Positions 2,643 through 58,782 of a stretch of 64,000 bases of DNA are shown here, one piece after another. A model generated the notes under the pieces. It was not told where the DNA came from and did not search any database. It was given only the letters and a program-made list of their open reading frames with translations. The stretch is from a virus: positions 135,099 through 199,098 of IMG/VR virus record IMGVR_UViG_3300037993_001242. One strand, written 5' to 3'. The translations under genes were made by a program, and so were the position numbers. Within the stretch, counting starts at the first letter, position 1, and every line of letters begins with the position of its first letter.

Positions 2643-3755
2643 GTGATCGCTGAAACCATCGTCCGCGCTTTGCTGGAAGAAGTTGAAGACCAGCACCGCT
2701 TTGTGACCGTCGTCGTCCTGCGCAACCCGGACGACCCGGAAGTCCTGTTGGTGCAGCGCAAAAATCCGCCGGAAGCAGGCAAGTGGGGCGCGCCGGGCGG
2801 CCATGCCAATGAAGGCGAAGCGCTTACGGACGCAGCCAAGCGCGAACTTAAAGAAGAAACGGGTATTGAGGCCGCCCAACTTCATTACTTTGACCGCGTA
2901 TTCATCCCGGAACGGGATGCCTTCGACAACTTCTACTGGACGGTTGTAGACGATGACGCCAGTGCCCGCCGGGGTGACGATGCCAAACACGTCAAATGGA
3001 CGAAAGTGGCCGAGATCGGCGAACTGGCTTTCAACTGCCACGTACAGATCAAGGACGCGGCTGACCGGGCGTTCGCCATCGGCAAAATTGCCGAATCAAA
3101 AGCCGAGGGCAAGTATGGACGCAACGGCCTGCTGATCGTTTTCGAGGGCATCGACGGCGCGGGCAAAACCACGCAGGTCAGGAAACTGACCGGCTGGCTC
3201 GCCGAACGCGGCTACAAGGTCAAGACCACCAAATGGAATTCATCGGAAATCCTCAACGGCGCGCTGTACAAAGCCAAAAAGCACAAGGAACTTTCGCCCA
3301 TCCTGTTCAGCCTGCTCCACGCTGCCGACCTCACGTGGCGCTACGAGAACATCGTCCGGCCCGCCCTCGACAAAGGCAAAGTCGTAATCTGCGACCGCTA
3401 CTATTACACCAGTTACGTCCGTGACAGCCTGCGCGGCGTCAACGATGCGATCCTCGATTACATTTACGAGGACTGGCGCAAACCCGACGTGGTCTTTTAC
3501 TGCAAGGTTCCCATTCGCACAGCGGTCGAGCGCTTGCTGCGCGAAAAAGGCGTGTATTACTACAGCGCCGGGCGGGACATCGGCTACAAAGGCAGCAAAG
3601 AGGAGTGTGCCATGCAATACGAGGAGGACATGGAAAAGGTGTACAAGCGCCTTTTTGCCAAAGAACCCAGTGTGTCTGAGATTAGTACCGAACGCCCGAT
3701 CAGCGAAATAGCTGATGAAATCAAGGCTATTTTGAAGAAAAAGTTCGATGTTTAA
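2643..3755 (+). CDS. Nudix hydrolase - thymidylate kinase fusion
   Basis: Nudix box GGHANEGEALTDAAKRELKEETGI; dTMP kinase motifs LIVFEGIDGAGKTTQ and VICDRYYYTS. Confidence 0.9.
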   Translation: MIAETIVRALLEEVEDQHRFVTVVVLRNPDDPEVLLVQRKNPPEAGKWGAPGGHANEGEALTDAAKRELKEETGIEAAQLHYFDRVFIPERDAFDNFYWTVVDDDASARRGDDAKHVKWTKVAEIGELAFNCHVQIKDAADRAFAIGKIAESKAEGKYGRNGLLIVFEGIDGAGKTTQVRKLTGWLAERGYKVKTTKWNSSEILNGALYKAKKHKELSPILFSLLHAADLTWRYENIVRPALDKGKVVICDRYYYTSYVRDSLRGVNDAILDYIYEDWRKPDVVFYCKVPIRTAVERLLREKGVYYYSAGRDIGYKGSKEECAMQYEEDMEKVYKRLFAKEPSVSEISTERPISEIADEIKAILKKKFDV

Positions 3756-3810
3756 CTTTGTTAAAATTAGTTGTTGACAACCTTCCTGACTTATGGTTTA
3801 TTTGGCGCAC

Positions 3811-4203
3811 ATGAAAGATACATAGGTTTCAAACGGTTCCTGTCTCCGGCTCTACGCGCTCGTGCGCACGGATGCAGGCATGTCTCCCGGCAAGACAGCT
3901 TCACAGGCCGGTCACGCTTACCTCGGAGCGTTCATCGAGGCTTCCCGCAAAACTCCTGACGCCGTTGCTGTCTACAGCAGCGAGCATCCCACGCCCGGCA
4001 CCAAGGTCTGTCTCAAAGGCAACCTGAACACCCTCCGGCGCGCTCAGGAAGAAGCCCAGAAGGCGGGTATTCCCCACTGCTTGATCATTGACTCAGGCTG
4101 CAAAAATTTCTTCAATGGTGAGCCGACCGTCACGGCGCTCGGATTTGGCCCGGCCACTGAAGAACAACTCACACCGTTTTTAAGGAGACTTCAAGTTTTA
4201 TGA
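3811..4203 (+). CDS. pth2: Peptidyl-tRNA hydrolase, PTH2 family, with in-frame TAG at 3823-3825
   Basis: LYALVRTDAGMSPGKTASQAGHAY, TKVCLK, IIDSG and TVTALGFGP motifs; ATG 3811 is in frame and no ATG/GTG/TTG lies between the TAG and GTG 3862. Confidence 0.8.
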
Positions 4204-4210
4204 ACAATTT

Positions 4211-4356
4211 GAGCAAGTGGCAGAATGGGACAATGCAGACCACGGAGAAAACTACGGCTAACAACCGAGACGGCGAAAGTATACGCGTGAAATCGCTGGA
4301 ACAACGTGAAATCCTAACCGTGCGACTTGGTGGTTCGACTCCACCCTTGCTCACCA
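4211..4356 (+). tRNA. tRNA-like RNA 1 with about 65 extra nt in the anticodon arm
   Basis: Acceptor GAGCAAG/CTTGCTC plus A-CCA; D arm GCA-GAATGGGACAA-TGC; T arm GGTGG-TTCGACT-CCACC; helix CACGG/CCGTG encloses 72 nt. Confidence 0.8.
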
Positions 4357-4362
4357 ATTTAC

Positions 4363-4501
4363 GGGGTGCATTACACACAGAGGAAACTGGCCCTTGGGGT
4401 AAAAGCGCAGACCAGAGAGAACGTGTGGGAAGTAGCATTATGGCAATGCCGCAGTACGCAAGTGCTGTGCTAAGTGGGTTCGATCCCCACCCACCCCGCC
4501 A
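4363..4501 (+). tRNA. tRNA-like RNA 2 with a 63-nt insert in the acceptor strand and a GCAA tetraloop instead of an anticodon loop
   Basis: GGGGTG[insert 4369-4431]G pairs with CCACCCC, then G-CCA; D arm GCATT/AATGC; T arm GTGGG-TTCGATC-CCCAC. Confidence 0.7.
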
Positions 4502-4508
4502 ATTTAAT

Positions 4509-4588
4509 GCGGAGGTAGCTCAGTTGGCAGAGCGCGTGGAGCCTTCACAGGTTTCACGAGGTCGGACGTTCGATCCGTTCCCTCCGCG
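4509..4588 (+). tRNA. tRNA-like RNA 3 with an extended 9-10 bp anticodon stem; loop contains TCA
   Basis: Acceptor GCGGAGG/CCTCCGC; D arm GCTC-AGTTGGCA-GAGC; variable loop AGGTC; T arm GGACG-TTCGATC-CGTTC; no encoded CCA. Confidence 0.8.
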
Positions 4589-4601
4589 ACACTTACAAAC
4601 A

Positions 4602-5093
4602 TCACAACAGTCCGAGACTTTTATTTGTGACAGCCATCTTACCAAATATGCGCACAGATTCCTCGTCAAAGACAGCCGCAGCTTCCTGCGGCGTTGCATG
4701 GTATCCAAAATTTTTACGGCCATTGTTGATATAGATCACAGCGCGCCAAGGCCGTTTGCGATTTCCACGAGGATCAAGTTCAACACCTTTGAAGAAACTC
4801 TTACTGCTGCGCACAACCAGACATTGTCGCCTACTCTTGAGATTGCAGCGCATGTGACTAAAACCAACGTTGTTGAGATCGAAAAACAGTTCGATGGCGT
4901 TTGGTTCGTGCAGCCACGGTTTAACATGATCAATCGTAAAATCATTCACGGAAGCAATCAATTTTCCACAGCGTATACATGTAGCCATACCGGCTTTTAC
5001 TGCCAGCATATAAAGCAACATTTTCCGCAAACGATTACTGGCCGTACCAACTGACATGCCCAACTGCCTTGATTTTTCAGCATTTTTATCCAT
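4602..5093 (-). CDS. HNH endonuclease with C-terminal AP2 DNA-binding domain
   Basis: CIRCG...IDHVKP...SHMRCN HNH core; FKGVE...PWRAVIY...FGYHATPQEAAAVFDE AP2 pattern. Confidence 0.85.
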   Translation of the reverse strand: MDKNAEKSRQLGMSVGTASNRLRKMLLYMLAVKAGMATCIRCGKLIASVNDFTIDHVKPWLHEPNAIELFFDLNNVGFSHMRCNLKSRRQCLVVRSSKSFFKGVELDPRGNRKRPWRAVIYINNGRKNFGYHATPQEAAAVFDEESVRIFGKMAVTNKSLGLL

Positions 5094-5117: not shown

Positions 5118-5438
5118 ATGAAATTCACATCCAAAGACGAATACTTACGCTGGCGTTCCGAGTGGAAAGCCAATTACCAAACCCTCAGCCAGCAAATCCG
5201 AGACGTTAAATTCGCCCGGTGGTTCGAGGATTCACGGCGCGGCGGTGTCAAGATGAACGCGGCGCAGACCCAGCGCTACGAGGCCATCGCCAAAGCGCAC
5301 AAGACCCAGTGGGGCTTCTTCCCCAACCATGCGCTCAAACAGCTTCGGGACAAGGCCACAGCCCTGCTCGCCGAGCGCGTTGCCTCGAAGATCGCGGCGC
5401 AAGAGTGCTATCAGGCTCGCCAACTGCACCCGGCCTGA
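5118..5438 (+). CDS. Hypothetical protein (106 aa)
   Basis: ATG after an A-rich leader; fills the gap between flanking genes. Confidence 0.7.
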   Translation: MKFTSKDEYLRWRSEWKANYQTLSQQIRDVKFARWFEDSRRGGVKMNAAQTQRYEAIAKAHKTQWGFFPNHALKQLRDKATALLAERVASKIAAQECYQARQLHPA

Positions 5439-51044: not shown

Positions 51045-54000
51045 ACTGGATTTAATCAGGGTTATTTTTGTCAATGTCAGCCTCGATCCACAGCCATGCA
51101 GCACCGATCAGCATGGCGATTGAACCCGTAACGCACGTCATTATCTTCCAGTCCTTGAAGAACATGACAACGATAAACGCCGCAAACCCAAGGCAAGCGG
51201 CAACCAGCAGGCCGATGCCGACCCACTGGTAGATTTTAAGTATTTGTCGAGCAGTGGAGCTTTTCATAGTATCACCGGCGTCTACGTTTTATTCTTTTGG
51301 CCCGATTCTTCCGGTACTTCGGGATGTATGCAAGAACACAACGCTTGAAATCCTGTCGCGTTCCTTCCTCGACAAGCGCCAGTACGGGCAGACGCGCCAG
51401 TTTACCCATTTTTCTTCGGCTGTGGTTTCTTGGTCGGCGTCTCATTCGTCAAGTCGTACACCATGAAGTCGTCCGCCTGAATATCCTTGAGCAACGCCAC
51501 CAGCGACAGGCGCATTGACCGCTTGTTCATGCGTGGCGTACTAAATGCCAACGTGCGCCGCCCGCGCCGGAAACGCCAGCGAAAATCGCAGCCTTGTTTA
51601 AATAATTCAAGACGCAGCATGTTTCAAATACTCCTCCATGGACATTGTCCGCTCACATACTTTGCACTCCACCGTGTCGATGGTCTTGCGGCTCCATTCG
51701 CAGGTATGGGGCGCGTCCATGTTCTCTACTTGCGTGGAACCACAGTGCTCGCACGGCTTGGTGCCCGTGCGCTGCATACACCAGATACATTTAAGCCGGG
51801 GCATCGGTGGTATGGGTTTGATGTTTAAGCGCCAGAAACGCCTCGTTCTGTTCGTCGATCCGCTCGAACTCCAGCACCATGAACGCGGCGGCGCGCAGCA
51901 CGTGCTTCTGGGCGTCGAACCGCTCCGGGTGCCAGTATTGCTTCGGCCACGGCCAACCGGCGTGGCAAAAGCCTTCTGGCAGCGGGCCGAACCGCTGAAT
52001 TACGACGGCGCAATCCAGATGGGTCTTGGCGGCGCGAATGTACTCGTTGTGGTTCCGTTGCAACTGGTCGATGCCGGTCGCCCGAAGTCCGTCGGCTTCC
52101 GCTTGGATTATGTCTGTGGTTAGGGTCATGTTTTTCCTTTCTTAAATCGATGGTCAGGGACATACGTATCCTCGTGATCTTTAGTTCGACATCAATTAAA
52201 CCCTTCGATGAATTTACGCATTTCCATCGGGGTGCTGTTGAGACCTCCCAGCAACAGGATCGTGCCGAGTTCCAACGCGGGGTGATTTTCGGTTGCAGGG
52301 TCTTTTCGCATGTCGCTGACCATGCTTGCCCAAGCTTGGCTCGTCTCTCCCATGTCACAGTATTCGAGAGCGCGTTTCTTACACCACACCAAATGTTGTG
52401 CGCGTGTTGATGTCGAGCCAACCGGTGCATGGATTATCTTTTTGGCCGTGGACAACTCGTTATACCGGGTCATAAGCTCGTCGTACAGCGGCACCAGCGA
52501 GGGGTCGTCAGTGGATTGCAGGCCGCGCAGCGCATCGCCCAAGGATGCGAGATCATCGCGATTGCAGGCCAGCGCCCGGTCTCGGCGTATACGGTCATGT
52601 TCCGTCATGCTTGTCCTCCTCTTTCTTCATTTCCGGTTTAGTCGCCAGCCAGCGCACGATCTGTTCACATGCGGATTCGAGCGTGGTGTACCGGCAGCGA
52701 TCCAGAAAGTCCTCGTTCCGGCTGCTGGGCATTGGCTCGTACTCCCAACCGCCTTCCTTGTTGAGCACCGAACCGGCGCACACCACGGCCCACCGGCGCA
52801 CACTGTCCTCCGTCGAGCGCTCCTCGATGGTCACCCGGTCATAACCGACCTCGCTCAACATCGGAATGCGGTAAGCTTTGGGTATCAACTGCTCCGTCAA
52901 TTCTTTGGCCGTGGGTACTTTCATAAATTATTGTTTGGACAAACGGTCGTCTGAGACACACCAACCAACTAATAAGACCGCTAAGGCTATGGTGTTGAGG
53001 GCGAACAAAACTCCAAAACCTGCCCAGCCTCCTTGGGGCTGCCCTCCCGCTAAAAAGCCTATGGAACATAAGAGGTCTGCCATAAACAACGGCGTCACTA
53101 AAAAATATCTTTATCATATCGTCCAGCGGTTCATTTCGTTATTTTTTAATGGGCGCAACTTCCACCCGGACAAAATCACTCAAACCGATTTCAGCAAAGC
53201 ACGGGCAGAGCAACCCGTCAATCACGCCGTGCGCTTCGCTCGTAGGCGGGATGCCGACAACCTCGCGGTGGCAATTCGGACACCTATAAATATAACGGAC
53301 ACCAAGCTCCGACTTGGGCTTCAACTCAACCGACGGCAACAGCCGGGTTGGCACGTCGTAGCACTCGCGAACCTCACCGCAGACTTCGCACGGCCCCACG
53401 GACTTGGCCATGGAGATCGGCCAGTCCGCTGCTTTCCGGCATGGATCACAGTAAAACATATCTCAATCGCCGTCGGTGCTAATCCAAAGCATAACCCACT
53501 TGCTCATTTGTGTATACGCTTTTTTGGCAGCAGCTTTTTCAGGAACTCCAACTCGGCTCTGGCCGCTGCTCTAAACTTCTTGGAATTGCGCCCATAATCA
53601 AAATAAGCAACTTCTGCTGTGCGATAGGGTGTGTCGGCGCAGCCCGTCCGACCTGTTTTTTGCTGCACCGGGCAGCCGACACAACTGAAAGCTGCATTAT
53701 TAAACAAGTGGCACAGCGCACAGTTTCCGGGGCCGATGCCCTCGTATCGCTGTGTTTTGCCAGTAGCCAGCCGACGCCAATGGGTGATGACCTCCTTCAG
53801 AGCGTTCAAAGTTGTTGATGTCATATTGTTTTTACCTGACCAGCGGAAATTTGGTTTTGCGGTACTGCTTGCGGTATTTGATCTGGAATTGCCGCAGGCG
53901 ACCAATGGCCTGTTCAACGAATTCGTCCATCTCGTCGGGCGGCACATAGTTAAATTTATGGGCGTTGACCAGCAGGCGGTCGCTGATGCCGCCGATGATG

Positions 54001-55274
54001 GAAGTCACCCACCAAAATTCAAAGAGGTAATTTTCTTCCAGCGTTGGACAGTGGGGCAGAGCTTTGGCGGATTTACGCGGCATATCACTTCTTTCTCTTT
54101 GGCTTGATGGGCAGCCCGCAGATTTTACAGGGCGCATTGGACGAACGCGCCAAGAAAGTCCAACCGCACTTGCAGTATTTTATCTTCGTTTTCACATCAG
54201 AGGCATTATGGCAGATCGTGTATACAGCTATCCGGGTGAAATTCCCAGTAATCGCGCATGGCGAAGGTCTCGCCCAGCATGGCCGTGGCCACGCGCAGGC
54301 CGCGCAGGAACGCGTGAAGCAGTTCGGGCGTGTTGAAGGTTTCGTTCCACGCGCCTTTGTTGTCCTCCGCCACGATCTCAACCTGATATACGTCGGTCTG
54401 GGGGTCGGTCTGGCTGACTTCGATCTTGGTGACTTTGATTTTCTGTTTTTTCATATTCGATAGCGGCCCGCACCATCAGTACCGTTGGCTCGGTGTCGGC
54501 ATCCCACGACCAGAGCGCCTTGAGCAACTCCAGCCCGGCATCGTTGGTGGTGACGAAACCTTTCTTGACGGCCACGCTGATCGGCGCAATCAATGCCACG
54601 AACGGCGGAAAATTAAACTGAACGAGCACCGTCTTGTCGGCGTTGGCAGCGCGCCAGCGCCGGGCGTTCTCCGCCATGGCCTCCAGTTGGGCTTCGTATT
54701 CTGCTGCGGTCGGTGTCATACGGTTGATTTTTCCTGCTGGCCCCAGATGTGTTCGGTGACGTAATCACAAAACGCCGCCAAGACCTGTTGCTCGTAACCG
54801 GTGGCCTTGTCGATCATCGCGTCGATGGAGGCGCGCCCGATCAAGTGCTCCAACTTAAAACCAGTTACTGTGGTAAAATTTTCGCGAACTTCCTTCTGTT
54901 CAGCCGCCCACCCCACGCAGCCTGCCCACGCCTCGAACATCAACGGCATCCCCATCGGGATCAGCTTCATGCCATTGACTGGTGGTTCCGGTGGCATTGA
55001 ACATTATTTGTTGGTGTTGGACACGGTGGCGAGCGTCGGAATGAGCGCGCCTTTAATGATGCTGATGCAGACAAACAGGCCGACGCAATTCCAGAACGGG
55101 ATGATCTGGTATACCGGCGGAAGCCAGTAGAAGTACTTGGCTCCGATTCCGCAGACCGTCCATGCGATCCAAAACGGGATTGAGAGCGAGATGTTGGCAA
55201 TGAGCGAAATCGCCCATCCGATTATTGGCAACTTGTTTATCATAATTTATCCAATGAATTGGAACTTTCGTTTA

Positions 55275-55303: not shown

Positions 55304-55825
55304 TCCAAATCATTCTTCGCAAATGCACCAACGGCAACCGCAATACCGGCAGCCGGTACCGTCATGCTCTGGAATCTCGGCGTTGGCCGCATACTCAATC
55401 TCGATCTGCTCCTGCCGCGTGCGGCCCGCATGGTGCGCCTTGGTGCAGATTGGATCACAGGTCACGGTCTTTGGGTTCTGGTTGACAACCCGCGCACCGC
55501 ACACCACGCATTTGCGTCCCGGCCTCTTACTGCTCATACGCGTAAAGAACAGCCAGCGCGTGCGTCCACCTGCCCCCTGTTTAAAAAAGCAAGCGACGCC
55601 AAACGATACCAGACCGATGGTTTGTTCCTCACCGGTAACAATAAAACCCGGCCACGTCGTTCCACGCTGGCAAAACTCGCTGTGGATGGCGGCATTAGAC
55701 CCGTATTATTGAAAACACAGAACTGTTTTCAGTGCCCGTGTCACTATCCGCCGGGTCATCACAAATCATGCCACCTGTTATTAAACGACGATCCCACAGC
55801 TAACCGCCGCTCCATTGCGGATAAA

Positions 55826-55855: not shown

Positions 55856-56896
55856 CAAGCCAAATGCACAACCAACTGCAAACCAACCAAGTGTGCATAC
55901 TGACGCCGCCAATTTTTGTGCCATACAGGTCAAGTTGATGGCATAACAGCCCAAAACCACCTGCACAATACTATTGACAGTGTTTACTTTTCAGATTCAA
56001 AGATCAGTTTGGGCAGGAATCCAGCCTCTGTTCCCGGCTCCCGTGATTCAACCCAGATGCCTTCAATCGATATGTGCCTGCCACAACCGCCGCAAATAAA
56101 CGTAAAATGATCGGTTTGAGCCGGATCGATCTCATACTCCGTGCCCAGCGGGATTTCGTCCTTGAGCACTGGAAAGCCGCACGGGCAGATGCTCAGGCGC
56201 TTGAGCGTGACTTTATCGGCCATAACCGGGGAATATCAATTGTCCGTGTGGGTCACAAGTGCATTTGGGATACTCTTTGCGATGGCGCGCCATGATACGC
56301 TTGAAATGTCTGCGGGTTGTATCGGCAAACACGCACCACGACGCGTCCCAATCATTTGGCCCCAATTTTGCCGCCGCCAACCTGACTTCTCGTGGCAGCA
56401 GGTCTGGGCGCTTGACCGGCTTCAGGCACTCCAGCCGGATGGGCACTTCCGACGCGTATTTTTCTTCGCGGATGAACTTGATCCTATTCCTGATTGGCTC
56501 GGTGGCTGGCTCCAGCAATGACCGATGATGGATGTGCCAGTACAGTTTGGGTTTTTTCATGAACATCGAATTTCGTAGCGAGCAAGACGCCTGCTATTAT
56601 GGGCAGCGTCTGCAATTTGAGGGCATTTTTGCAAGTTATCCAAAAACTCCAACCACCACGCCGGAAACAATACTTCTTGACTTTTTGTGGCGGTGGTCTT
56701 TAGCATAGCTAAAGACCAATATCCAATGTATACAACAAAAGCAAGCCAAAAATGCCGTTCGTGATATTTTCATGATTTTGTCAGCAACAAAATTTACTGA
56801 AACCAAATTGTCGTGGTGCTGGAAGCTCGTCCTTTTGGCGGCGCTATGCCTGCTGGGCGGGTTCTTTGCCTACCTCGACATCGCCTTGACCCCGCC

Positions 56897-58295: not shown

Positions 58296-58537
58296 ACGCC
58301 ACAGGTATCAACCGTGATGACGCTGATACGCGGATAGGCCCTTTCATTGCATCGGTGGCACAGCCTTTCGGGAAACGCTTTAATGAGATACTTCCAATGG
58401 CTGGAGTCGAGTAAACTTGAATTCAGCCACTCCGCGTCGTATGTCTCTCCGCAGCCGCAAGCGGCGCAGGCGTAACCTTGCACCACTTCCAGCACCGCCC
58501 GCTTAAATTCCTGTTTGCTGCCGGTTTCCGGGATCAT
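58292..58537 (-). CDS. PExG-tag array member, zinc ribbon
   Basis: MIPETGSKQEFKRAVL; CAAC...CHRC. Confidence 0.8.
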   Translation of the reverse strand: MIPETGSKQEFKRAVLEVVQGYACAACGCGETYDAEWLNSSLLDSSHWKYLIKAFPERLCHRCNERAYPRISVITVDTCGV

Positions 58538-58782
58538 GTGGTGAGCAGCCGTTGGCATTCGATTGACATCCATTCGGATTCTCTTTGTTGGTTACCGTTG
58601 CGATAATCGGCCCAGCAAACGGGACACCAACGGATGTCAAGTTCGTCGGTGTTGAGATCGTACCACTCTGTCCAATCTGCCGGGATGGTAAAACCTCTGC
58701 CGCAATAGACACAGTGCCAGACCCGCACCGTCGCCAAGACCGTGTGCTTGAACTCGACCCGGCTGCCGGTTTCAATTATCAT
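58534..58782 (-). CDS. PExG-tag array member, zinc ribbon
   Basis: MIIETGSRVEFKHTVL; CVYC...CPVC. Confidence 0.8.
   Translation of the reverse strand: MIIETGSRVEFKHTVLATVRVWHCVYCGRGFTIPADWTEWYDLNTDELDIRWCPVCWADYRNGNQQRESEWMSIECQRLLTT

What the first reader, a model, noticed from the sequence alone, without database searches (positions are those of the whole stretch)
4211..4356. tRNA body with a 72-nt anticodon loop region; counting from the T arm gives anticodon CUA
Seen: perfect acceptor, D and T arms and an encoded CCA, but the helix CACGG/CCGTG encloses 72 nt rather than 7. Counting back from the T stem (variable loop GACTT, 3' stem strand CGTGC) puts CTA (4314-4316) at positions 34-36, followed by A37. 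Position 33 is C, not the canonical U. The insert holds a mini hairpin CGG-CTAACAA-CCG (4255-4267) that looks like a second anticodon loop. It is too short for a group I intron and I found no clean bulge-helix-bulge. Inference: either an intron-containing amber suppressor that could serve the adjacent PTH2 UAG, or a non-decoding tRNA mimic.
Basis: partly seen in the sequence, partly recalled or inferred. Interest (0 to 1): 0.75.

Follow-up and report, generated by a model that had tools for sequence, protein, structure and literature searches.

The report
Non-decoding phage tRNA look-alike, not suppressor
This is a real phage gene for a tRNA-shaped RNA that has lost its codon-reading arm; it is not the amber suppressor, which the phage encodes elsewhere, and it lies in a stop-free reading frame joined to a stop-codon-gated peptidyl-tRNA hydrolase gene.

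Summary
Window 4211-4356 (E1) has an all-Watson-Crick 7-bp acceptor stem, a T arm, a 3-bp D stem with a G·A mismatch, A73 and an encoded CCA. Its helix CACGG/CCGTG encloses exactly 72 nt.

The amber-suppressor reading does not hold:
- "CUA at 34-36" depends on one arbitrary register. In-silico splicing gives 16 different anticodons.
- I found no intron signature, and none of the splicing or ligase families tested.
- The 199-kb phage has a canonical tRNA(CUA) elsewhere (genome 111560-111633).

E1 is the first of three tandem non-decoding tRNA look-alikes directly after pth2. Its insert is A-rich and folds no better than shuffles. It has no homologue in 114 related loci; close relatives carry other mimic types at this spot.

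New here: the array lies in one stop-free frame that starts at an ATG overlapping the pth2 stop (ATGA). Ten Pth2-linked arrays share this; the two longest are open over about 570 nt (P<0.0003). The phage's ordinary tRNA arrays do not, and at least four arrays lying farther from pth2 are exceptions. Translation through the mimics is therefore likely, and it should compete with their folding and processing. The function of the released RNA is unknown.

Earlier notes of this scan already report the Pth2/tRNA-mimic cassette in about 18 other genomes.

The parts
3774..3802 (+). Promoter-like site for the cassette: TTGACA, 17 nt, TTTATT preceded by TG. The pth2 ATG follows 8 nt later, so the mRNA is nearly leaderless.
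   Evidence: Direct reading. Relatives have TTGACA/TATAGT-type sites at the same distance before their leader ATG. The generic scan did not list it.
3811..4203 (+). pth2 gene (Pfam PTH2). ATG at 3811, in-frame TAG as codon 5 (3823-3825), stop TGA at 4201-4203.
   Evidence: PF01981, E 6.7e-19; translation. In 89 of 90 distinct relatives with upstream sequence (91 loci listed; one lacks it), the first in-frame stop before the RTD motif is TAG. The one TAA case carries a tRNA(UUA).
4200..5054 (+). Stop-free frame. ATG 4200 overlaps the pth2 stop (ATGA); the frame runs through E1, E2 and E3 to TGA 5052-5054. It has no Pfam domain.
   Evidence: Stops per frame over 4211-4590 are 5/0/4. Dinucleotide-shuffle P for that frame being open is 0.005.
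4211..4356 (+). E1, the finding: a tRNA-shaped gene of 146 nt. It has an acceptor stem, D arm, T arm, A73 and CCA; the anticodon arm is replaced.
4241..4322 (+). The replaced anticodon domain of E1: a 5-bp closing helix CACGG/CCGTG around a 72-nt segment that is 40% A. It holds the hairpin 4255-4267 and the direct repeat CGTGAAATC (4286-4294 and 4305-4313).
   Evidence: Folding z-scores are +0.23 to -0.35, no better than shuffles.
4363..4501 (+). E2: a second mimic. Its anticodon stem is sealed by a GCAA tetraloop, about 63 nt are inserted after the 5' acceptor strand, and it ends in CCA.
4509..4588 (+). E3: a third mimic with a tRNA body (Rfam tRNA 47.9 bits). Its anticodon arm folds as a 10-bp hairpin with a 4-nt loop. 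CCA is not encoded.
   Evidence: The L004 orthologue keeps the hairpin through paired changes.
4602..5093 (-). HNH endonuclease gene inserted after the array. It is present in L004 and absent from L001 and L005.
   Evidence: PF01844.

Best explanation
E1 is a genuine phage gene for a tRNA-shaped RNA that cannot decode. It keeps the 'top half' of a tRNA: a 7-bp acceptor stem, T arm, elbow residues, A73, an encoded CCA, and the same (A)TTT trailer as the phage's real tRNAs. RNase P, 3'-end trimming enzymes, EF-Tu, Pth-type hydrolases and enzymes that attack the tRNA tail recognise this half (established knowledge). The anticodon arm is replaced by an A-rich, weakly structured 72-nt segment.

E1 is the first of three such look-alikes directly after a pth2 gene whose fifth codon is UAG. 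A separate canonical tRNA(CUA) elsewhere in the genome most likely reads that UAG (inferred).

Shown: the three look-alikes lie in one stop-free frame whose ATG overlaps the pth2 stop.

Inferred: ribosomes that finish pth2 re-initiate and translate through the array. A translating ribosome melts the tRNA folds, and RNase P cleavage would cut the message. Release of E1 as an RNA and translation of the region therefore exclude each other, and mimic output falls when UAG read-through rises.

Speculative: the released RNA acts as a decoy or sponge for a factor that binds tRNA acceptor ends.
For: Anatomy and significance:
-.

Same gene grammar as the phage's real tRNAs:
- 39 of 40 ARAGORN calls (one of them E3) encode CCA, mostly followed by (A)TTT.

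Not a decoder:
- ARAGORN and Rfam make no call.
- In-silico splicing gives 16 alternative anticodons.
- No bulge-helix-bulge fits the tRNA body.

Canonical tRNA(CUA):
- It lies at genome 111560-111633.
- 44 of 55 canonical tRNAs found next to pth2 in relatives are tRNA(CUA).

Recurrent class:
- 30 distinct non-canonical CCA-ended elements lie near pth2 in about 115 loci.

Stop-free frame:
- Stops per frame are window 5/0/4, L005 5/6/0, L007 6/4/0, L068 7/5/0, L029 10/16/0 (570 nt), L034 0/11/11 (564 nt) and L067 0/6/4.
- Shuffle P for these seven ranges from 0.024 to below 0.0003. L004 (4/3/0) and L025 (0/1/8) are also open but not individually significant (P 0.09 and 0.07); L001, at about 100 nt, was not tested.
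- Eight of nine ordinary tRNA arrays in the same genome have stops in all three frames; the one open frame is in a 156-nt array.
- The open frame is always headed by an in-frame ATG 9-13 nt before the first element, or by an ATG-leader-TAG.
- In L001, L007 and L068 it runs in frame into the next protein gene. In L068 no canonical start lies before the conserved protein part.
- 50 of 83 pth2 genes end in an ATGA overlap, made with the Leu codons CTA or TTA, which are rare in the window's phage.
Against: - There is no expression, processing or ribosome data.
- E1 has no detectable homologue, so neither covariation nor conservation can be tested.
- Its insert folds no better than shuffles.
- The closest relatives lack E1 altogether, so it could be dispensable.
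- The stop-free rule is not universal. Arrays farther from pth2 (L094, L063, L103) have stops in all frames.
- For the window alone P is only 0.005.
- The frame staying open across the antisense strand of the HNH gene is not informative (P 0.17).
- The decoy role is pure inference.
Confidence: 0.62

Rival explanations
1. E1 is an intron-containing amber suppressor. The 65-72-nt insert is spliced out to leave a CUA anticodon loop that reads the UAG in pth2.
For: CTA lies at 4314-4316 and is followed by A. pth2 needs UAG read-through. Five in-silico deletions give an ARAGORN tRNA(CUA).
Against: - The register is arbitrary and conflicts with the stated helix. Position 33 would be C.
- Fifteen other anticodons are equally obtainable.
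- No bulge-helix-bulge fits the body, and no group I or other Rfam family matches.
- RtcB, EndA and Rnl2 are absent from the record.
- A canonical tRNA(CUA) already exists.
- Relatives carry anticodon-sealed mimics at this position, not decoders.
Confidence: 0.04
2. E1 is a decaying or chimeric tRNA gene, a recombination scar in a fast-turning-over array, with no function of its own. It is kept stop-free only because the frame it sits in must stay open.
For: - There is no homologue in 114 loci.
- The insert is unstructured.
- The array content differs between relatives whose flanks are 77-92% identical.
- A mobile HNH gene lies next door.
Against: - All 12 top-half base pairs are Watson-Crick, and the CCA, A73 and elbow residues are intact.
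- The same architecture (intact D arm, replaced anticodon domain, A73) is seen in L034:1191-1341, L029:1156-1341 and L094:897-1015.
Confidence: 0.2
3. E1 works only in cis, as an RNase P cleavage site ('tRNA punctuation') that sets the fate of the pth2 and downstream message. The released RNA has no role in trans.
For: Only the RNase P-relevant top half is conserved across the mimic types, down to 55-nt minihelix-like elements. The start codon lies 9-13 nt before the first element.
Against: One site would be enough, but arrays hold 3 to 7 elements of distinct, recurring types. D arms and elbow residues are retained although RNase P does not need them.
Confidence: 0.12
4. The region is an ordinary protein-coding gene (ORF 4200-5054) and the tRNA likeness is incidental.
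For: The frame is open for 284 codons and gene callers annotate it in relatives.
Against: - The ORF has no Pfam domain.
- Its 'protein' is not conserved between relatives, except where the RNA elements are shared.
- The tRNA features are far beyond chance.
- Its distal half is the antisense strand of a real HNH gene.
Confidence: 0.02

Closest known systems
Stable tRNA-like RNAs in phage tRNA clusters (T4 species 1 and 2 RNAs, T5 RNA1-3; recalled from my own knowledge, not checked here)
   Same: They are phage-encoded, co-located with tRNA genes, have tRNA-type ends with CCA, have no decoding role, and their function has long been unknown.
   Different: No sequence relation was tested. E1 sits beside a UAG-gated pth2 gene rather than in the main tRNA cluster, and it lies in a stop-free frame coupled to that gene.
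Canonical tRNA (Rfam RF00005), including phage suppressor tRNA(CUA) as used in stop-codon recoding (bioRxiv 10.1101/2021.08.26.457843; XacN1, PMC5852040)
   Same: Acceptor stem, D arm, T arm, discriminator base, CCA and flanking (A)TTT are the same as in the phage's own tRNAs.
   Different: There is no 5-bp stem with a 7-nt anticodon loop and no U33. Neither Rfam nor ARAGORN calls it. The real tRNA(CUA) is a separate gene.
Intron-bearing phage tRNAs ('enigmatic introns' of Lak megaphages, PMC6784885)
   Same: An oversized phage tRNA gene with extra sequence in the anticodon region and no recognised intron class.
   Different: The Lak cases resolve to a defined tRNA type once the insert is removed, and the inserts are conserved. 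E1 resolves to no unique anticodon and its insert is not conserved.
YrlA / Y RNA-like tRNA mimics bound by Ro60 (Rfam RF02553)
   Same: A non-decoding RNA with tRNA-like T and D arms. This same phage encodes a Ro60 orthologue and a YrlA-like RNA.
   Different: YrlA is circularly permuted, with a closed acceptor and no CCA end, and it lies next to rsr. E1 has open ends with CCA and lies 85 kb away.
tmRNA
   Same: A tRNA-like acceptor/T domain interrupted by a large insert, with a link to ribosome rescue and peptidyl-tRNA biology.
   Different: E1 has no G3:U70 pair, no tag reading frame ending in a stop (the frame runs straight through), no Rfam or ARAGORN tmRNA call, and is only 146 nt long.
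Phage tRNAs as counter-defence against tRNA-targeting immunity (PMC10264068, PMC11555353), and tRNA-tail cleavage by Cas12a3 (PMC12851939)
   Same: These supply a rationale for extra tRNA-shaped RNAs that keep the acceptor end.
   Different: Those phage tRNAs still decode. A decoy role for an RNA without an anticodon is my inference only.

Membership tests
Canonical tRNA (RF00005) | 7-bp acceptor stem, discriminator base, T arm with a T-loop, and a D arm with G18G19 | tested here: met
   Direct reading and the strict detector. The D stem is 3 bp plus G·A.
Canonical tRNA (RF00005) | 5-bp anticodon stem closing a 7-nt loop with U33 and a purine at 37 | tested here: not met
   The helix closes 72 nt.
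Canonical tRNA (RF00005) | Reaches the Rfam gathering score or gets an ARAGORN call | tested here: not met
   No Rfam match even at E<=10. ARAGORN makes no call, with or without introns.
Intron-containing tRNA (archaeal-type or group I) | A bulge-helix-bulge at the exon-intron junctions, or a group I fold | tested here: not met
   The only bulge-helix-bulge candidates use T-stem or variable-loop bases. Rfam finds nothing. 72 nt is too short for a group I intron.
Intron-containing tRNA (archaeal-type or group I) | One defined excision restores a canonical tRNA | tested here: not met
   56 of 918 deletions give a call, spread over 16 anticodons.
Intron-containing tRNA (archaeal-type or group I) | Splicing endonuclease and ligase available | tested here: inconclusive
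   No RtcB, tRNA_int_endo or Rnl2 in the record. The Rnl1 search had no positive control. The record is estimated 82% complete and the host is unknown.
Amber suppressor tRNA | CUA at positions 34-36 of a 7-nt loop | tested here: not met
   The register is arbitrary. A true tRNA(CUA) lies at genome 111560-111633.
tmRNA | G3:U70 pair, a tag ORF with a stop codon, pseudoknots | tested here: not met
   Position 3:70 is G-C. No stop occurs in the through-frame. ARAGORN -m and Rfam make no call.
YrlA | Permuted tRNA-like module on a Ro-binding stem, next to rsr | tested here: not met
   E1 is not permuted. The only YrlA-model match near it is a chance 20-bit hit spanning E2 and E3. The real YrlA-like RNA and rsr are at genome 52.7-54.5 kb.
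Pth2-linked tRNA-mimic arrays (a class seen in this scan, not a published family) | A CCA-ended tRNA top half with a non-decoding anticodon region, directly flanking a stop-gated pth2 | tested here: met
Pth2-linked tRNA-mimic arrays (a class seen in this scan, not a published family) | An orthologue of this particular element in related phages | tested here: not met
   nhmmer finds nothing in 114 loci. Exact-word scans find nothing. One search gave one chance match inside a coding region.
T4/T5 stable tRNA-like RNAs | Sequence or structure homology | not tested
   No model was to hand; this comparison comes from memory only.

The most novel reading that the evidence does not exclude
tRNA-shaped genes, both the suppressor tRNA and its anticodon-less look-alikes, are deliberately embedded in translated reading frames. 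Those frames are gated by the very stop codon the suppressor reads.
- With little suppressor, ribosomes stop in the leader, and the RNA folds and is cut out as tRNA and mimics.
- With much suppressor, ribosomes read on, melt the folds, and make Pth2 and the downstream proteins instead.

This would be a self-limiting switch between processing and translation. E1 would be one interchangeable module of it.
Probability: 0.3. Interest if true: 0.85.

Novelty: new variant of a known kind. Interest (0 to 1): 0.55.

Why it matters
- Annotation. E1 should not be recorded as a suppressor or an intron-bearing tRNA, and the 284-codon ORF over it should not be recorded as an ordinary protein gene.
- A cassette found in many large soil phages. 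It joins a stop-gated Pth2 gene, a matching suppressor tRNA, and tRNA look-alikes that keep only the acceptor/T half. I found no paper that describes it.
- A testable handle. The arrays directly abutting pth2 are kept free of stop codons in one frame and are headed by a start codon. If translation and RNase P processing really compete on the same RNA, this would be a new way for a virus to time or limit stop-codon suppression. It would also be a natural example of tRNA-shaped RNA inside coding sequence.

Tried and rejected
- **Searches for E1 homologues, all negative.**
  - Exact words of E1 gave no true hit in the viral and metagenome collections. The one 18-mer hit lies in coding DNA.
  - An E3 word in viral contigs gave nothing.
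  - nhmmer with E1 and with its insert found nothing in 114 loci.
  - A GTGAAAT-before-T-arm motif gave only three loose look-alikes.
  - blastn against the phage collection gave no match.
- **E1-type look-alikes.** L034:1191-1341, L029:1156-1341 and L094:897-1015 share the architecture and a similar D loop but no alignable insert or common fold. I did not build a covariance model from them.
- **E1/E2 shared word.** GCAGACCA..GAGAA matches 13 of 15 positions, but shuffle P is 0.05, so it is not significant.
- **Derivation from the phage's Leu tRNAs.** This is suggestive only (TG at 8-9, A73, a similar T arm). No claim is made.
- **Plus frame open across the antisense strand of the HNH gene.** This is uninformative. 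TTA, CTA and TCA together are only 1.2% of codons, so P is 0.17.
- **A minus-strand gene as the cause of the open frame.** Rejected: the minus-strand ORF 4169-4438 is not codon-aligned with it.
- **tmRNA and YrlA readings.** Both rejected; see the membership tests.
- **Generic promoter scan.** It missed the TTGACA/TTTATT site. I read that site by eye, so it is weak evidence.

Full report
**Setting**

The window is the last 64 kb of a single 199,098-bp virus record, estimated 82% complete. ARAGORN finds about 40 ordinary tRNA genes at 50-74 kb on the minus strand. It also finds a tmRNA-like call and a canonical tRNA with anticodon CUA at genome 111560-111633. In the window it calls only one gene, at 4508-4590. 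Rfam at gathering thresholds finds nothing in the window.

**The observation**

- The acceptor stem is 7 bp and all Watson-Crick (4211-4217 with 4346-4352). A73 follows, then an encoded CCA (4354-4356).
- The T arm is GGTGG / TTCGACT / CCACC (4329-4345).
- The D arm has three Watson-Crick pairs plus a G·A, around the loop AATGGGACA(A).
- The helix CACGG (4241-4245) / CCGTG (4318-4322) encloses exactly 72 nt.

A strict detector for a T arm, a 7/7 acceptor and CCA finds one hit in the window. The mean over 100 shuffles is 0.03 with G-U pairs allowed and 0.00 with Watson-Crick pairs only. E1 also follows the gene grammar of this phage's real tRNAs. Of ARAGORN's 40 tRNA calls (one of which is E3), 39 encode CCA, and most are followed by (A)TTT, as E1 is.

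**Why E1 is not an amber suppressor**

- The 'CUA at 34-36' count takes CGTGC as the 3' stem strand. In the helix's own register, positions 34-36 read CCU.
- I deleted every single internal segment of 50-85 nt and ran ARAGORN on each product. Of 918 deletions, 56 gave a tRNA call, with 16 different anticodons: UAA 8, CGU 7, CUA 5, CCU 5, ACG 5 and others. The sequence does not single out CUA.
- No bulge-helix-bulge is compatible with the tRNA body. Rfam finds no intron or ribozyme family, even at E<=10.
- The record holds no RtcB, splicing endonuclease, Rnl2-type ligase or CCA-adding enzyme. The Rnl1 search had no positive control.
- The phage's own tRNA(CUA) has a textbook loop, CUCUAAA. Its acceptor stem, GCTTCCG/CGGAAGC, is the same as in the suppressors beside pth2 in relatives.

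**What surrounds E1**

E1 starts 8 nt after the stop codon of a Pfam PTH2 gene. That gene's fifth codon is TAG. Two more tRNA-shaped genes follow.
- E2 (4363-4501) has its anticodon stem capped by a GCAA tetraloop.
- E3 (4509-4588) has a tRNA body scoring 47.9 bits on the Rfam tRNA model, but its anticodon arm folds as a 10-bp hairpin.

None of the three can decode.

**Relatives**

I collected about 115 related loci through Pth2.
- In 89 of 90 distinct loci with upstream sequence (91 were listed; one has none), the first in-frame stop before the conserved RTD motif is TAG, 27-87 nt upstream. The single TAA case carries a tRNA(UUA).
- Among 85 distinct CCA-ended tRNA-shaped elements found with strict criteria, 55 are canonical; 44 of these are tRNA(CUA) and one is tRNA(UUA). 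The other 30 are non-canonical: ten 55-nt minihelix-like elements and twenty of 65-189 nt.

The class to which E1 belongs is therefore recurrent. E1 itself is not.
- nhmmer finds no homologue of E1 or of its insert in any locus.
- Exact-word scans of the viral and metagenome collections find none.
- The closest relatives (95% Pth2 identity) have only an E3-like element at this spot.
- The next closest have a different mimic, with a D-loop insert and a GCAA-sealed anticodon stem.

The E1 insert is 40% A and folds no better than shuffled sequence. Its z-scores run from +0.23 to -0.35; for the whole of E1 the z-score is -0.77.

**The stop-free frame (new observation)**

Over 4211-4590 the three frames hold 5, 0 and 4 stop codons. 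The open frame begins at ATG 4200, which overlaps the pth2 stop as ATGA. The same holds in relatives whose arrays have different content.

| Locus | Stops per frame | Shuffle P, that frame open |
|---|---|---|
| window | 5/0/4 | 0.005 |
| L004 | 4/3/0 | 0.09 |
| L005 | 5/6/0 | 0.011 |
| L007 | 6/4/0 | 0.024 |
| L068 | 7/5/0 | 0.005 |
| L029 (570 nt) | 10/16/0 | <0.0003 |
| L034 (564 nt) | 0/11/11 | <0.0003 |
| L067 | 0/6/4 | 0.018 |
| L025 | 0/1/8 | 0.07 |

The P values come from dinucleotide-preserving shuffles. L001, with only about 100 nt, reads 1/1/0.

- Eight of the nine ordinary tRNA arrays of the same genome have stops in all three frames. The exception is a 156-nt array.
- Each open frame is headed by an in-frame ATG 9-13 nt before the first element. 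In L029, L034 and L067 it is headed instead by an ATG-leader-TAG that resembles the window's pth2 leader.
- In L001, L007 and L068 the frame continues in phase into the next protein gene. In L068 no canonical start codon precedes the conserved part of that protein.
- In L067 the frame runs through a TAG into pth2.
- Coupling at the pth2 stop is a family trait. Of 83 distinct pth2 genes, 50 end in ATGA, built with the Leu codons CTA or TTA, which are rare in the window's phage.

The rule has exceptions. Arrays lying some hundreds of bases from pth2 (L094, L063, L103) have stops in every frame.

**Interpretation**

- Shown: E1 is a real tRNA-shaped gene with no usable anticodon, in a stop-free frame coupled to a UAG-gated pth2.
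- Inferred: ribosomes translate through the array. Because a ribosome unfolds the tRNA shapes and RNase P cleavage would cut the message, release of the mimics and translation of the region should exclude each other. That ties mimic output inversely to UAG read-through.
- Speculative: once released, E1 acts through its acceptor/T half, for instance as a decoy for factors that bind or attack tRNA ends. Immunity aimed at the CCA tail exists (PMC12851939), and phage tRNAs are known to counter tRNA-targeting defences (PMC10264068, PMC11555353).
- A real rival is that E1 is a functionless recombination product, kept open only because its frame must stay open.

**Literature**

The papers I found mention phage suppressor tRNAs with unknown targets alongside a Pth gene (XacN1, PMC5852040). 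They also cover stop-codon recoding in phages (bioRxiv 10.1101/2021.08.26.457843) and unexplained inserts in Lak megaphage tRNAs (PMC6784885). None describes tRNA look-alikes embedded in a reading frame next to pth2.

**Earlier notes of this scan**

Earlier notes report the Pth2/tRNA-mimic cassette in about 18 other genomes, and report the neighbouring E2 and pth2 in this genome. I used them as leads. I re-tested the TAG gating and the recurrence of the mimics myself.

Noticed in passing
Genome 52670-53752 (minus) and about 54392-54505 (minus); outside the window (L115, L116): The phage encodes a Ro60/TROVE orthologue (PF05731, 67.6 and 60 bits, in a 580-aa open frame). Next to it lies a YrlA-like RNA: a full-length Rfam RF02553 match of 39.9 bits, E 2.8e-6, below the gathering score of 69. 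This is a second, permuted kind of tRNA mimic, inside the main tRNA cluster.
   Followed up: partly
Genome 58449-58533, 56507-56591, about 58540-58623 and about 56098-56181 (minus); outside the window: Four Leu tRNAs (anticodons UAG, UAA, CAG, CAA) are missed or mis-called by default ARAGORN. They carry about 6 extra nt between U8-G9 and the D stem and have no long variable arm.
   Followed up: partly
window 3811-3825, and leaders in L026, L029 and L034: The pth2 leader MKDT-TAG-VS.. recurs nearly word for word. L026 has the same ATGAAAGATACATAG, and L029 and L034 use a similar leader in front of the tRNA array itself. The base context after the stop (TAG GTT TC) is conserved.
   Followed up: partly
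L026:1352-1480; L023, L024, L067: In several relatives the suppressor tRNA(CUA) gene itself lies between the leader and pth2, in the pth2 reading frame, sometimes bracketed by two in-frame TAG codons. In some loci an in-frame TAG is the tRNA's own U8-A9-G10.
   Followed up: partly
L028:1290-1600: One relative gates pth2 with TAA twice instead of TAG and carries a tRNA with anticodon UUA. The stop type and the suppressor anticodon change together.
   Followed up: no
window 4602-5093 (minus): An HNH endonuclease gene with an AP2-like C-terminal part (read by eye, not scored) is inserted between the mimic array and the conserved 106-aa gene at 5118-5438. It is present in L004 and absent from L001 and L005, so it is probably a mobile homing endonuclease.
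   Followed up: partly
window 2643-3755: A Nudix-thymidylate kinase fusion gene lies upstream of pth2. A Nudix gene keeps this position in many relatives (L007, L009, L013).
   Followed up: no
window 4286-4294 and 4305-4313; L004:3539-3549: CGTGAAATC occurs twice inside the E1 insert. The longer word CGTGAAATCCT also forms the 5' strand of the sealed anticodon hairpin of the E3 orthologue in L004. This hints at exchange of pieces between mimic modules.
   Followed up: no
Genome 55346-55771 (minus); outside the window: ARAGORN calls a tmRNA with an unusually long 33-residue tag. I did not check it against Rfam.
   Followed up: no
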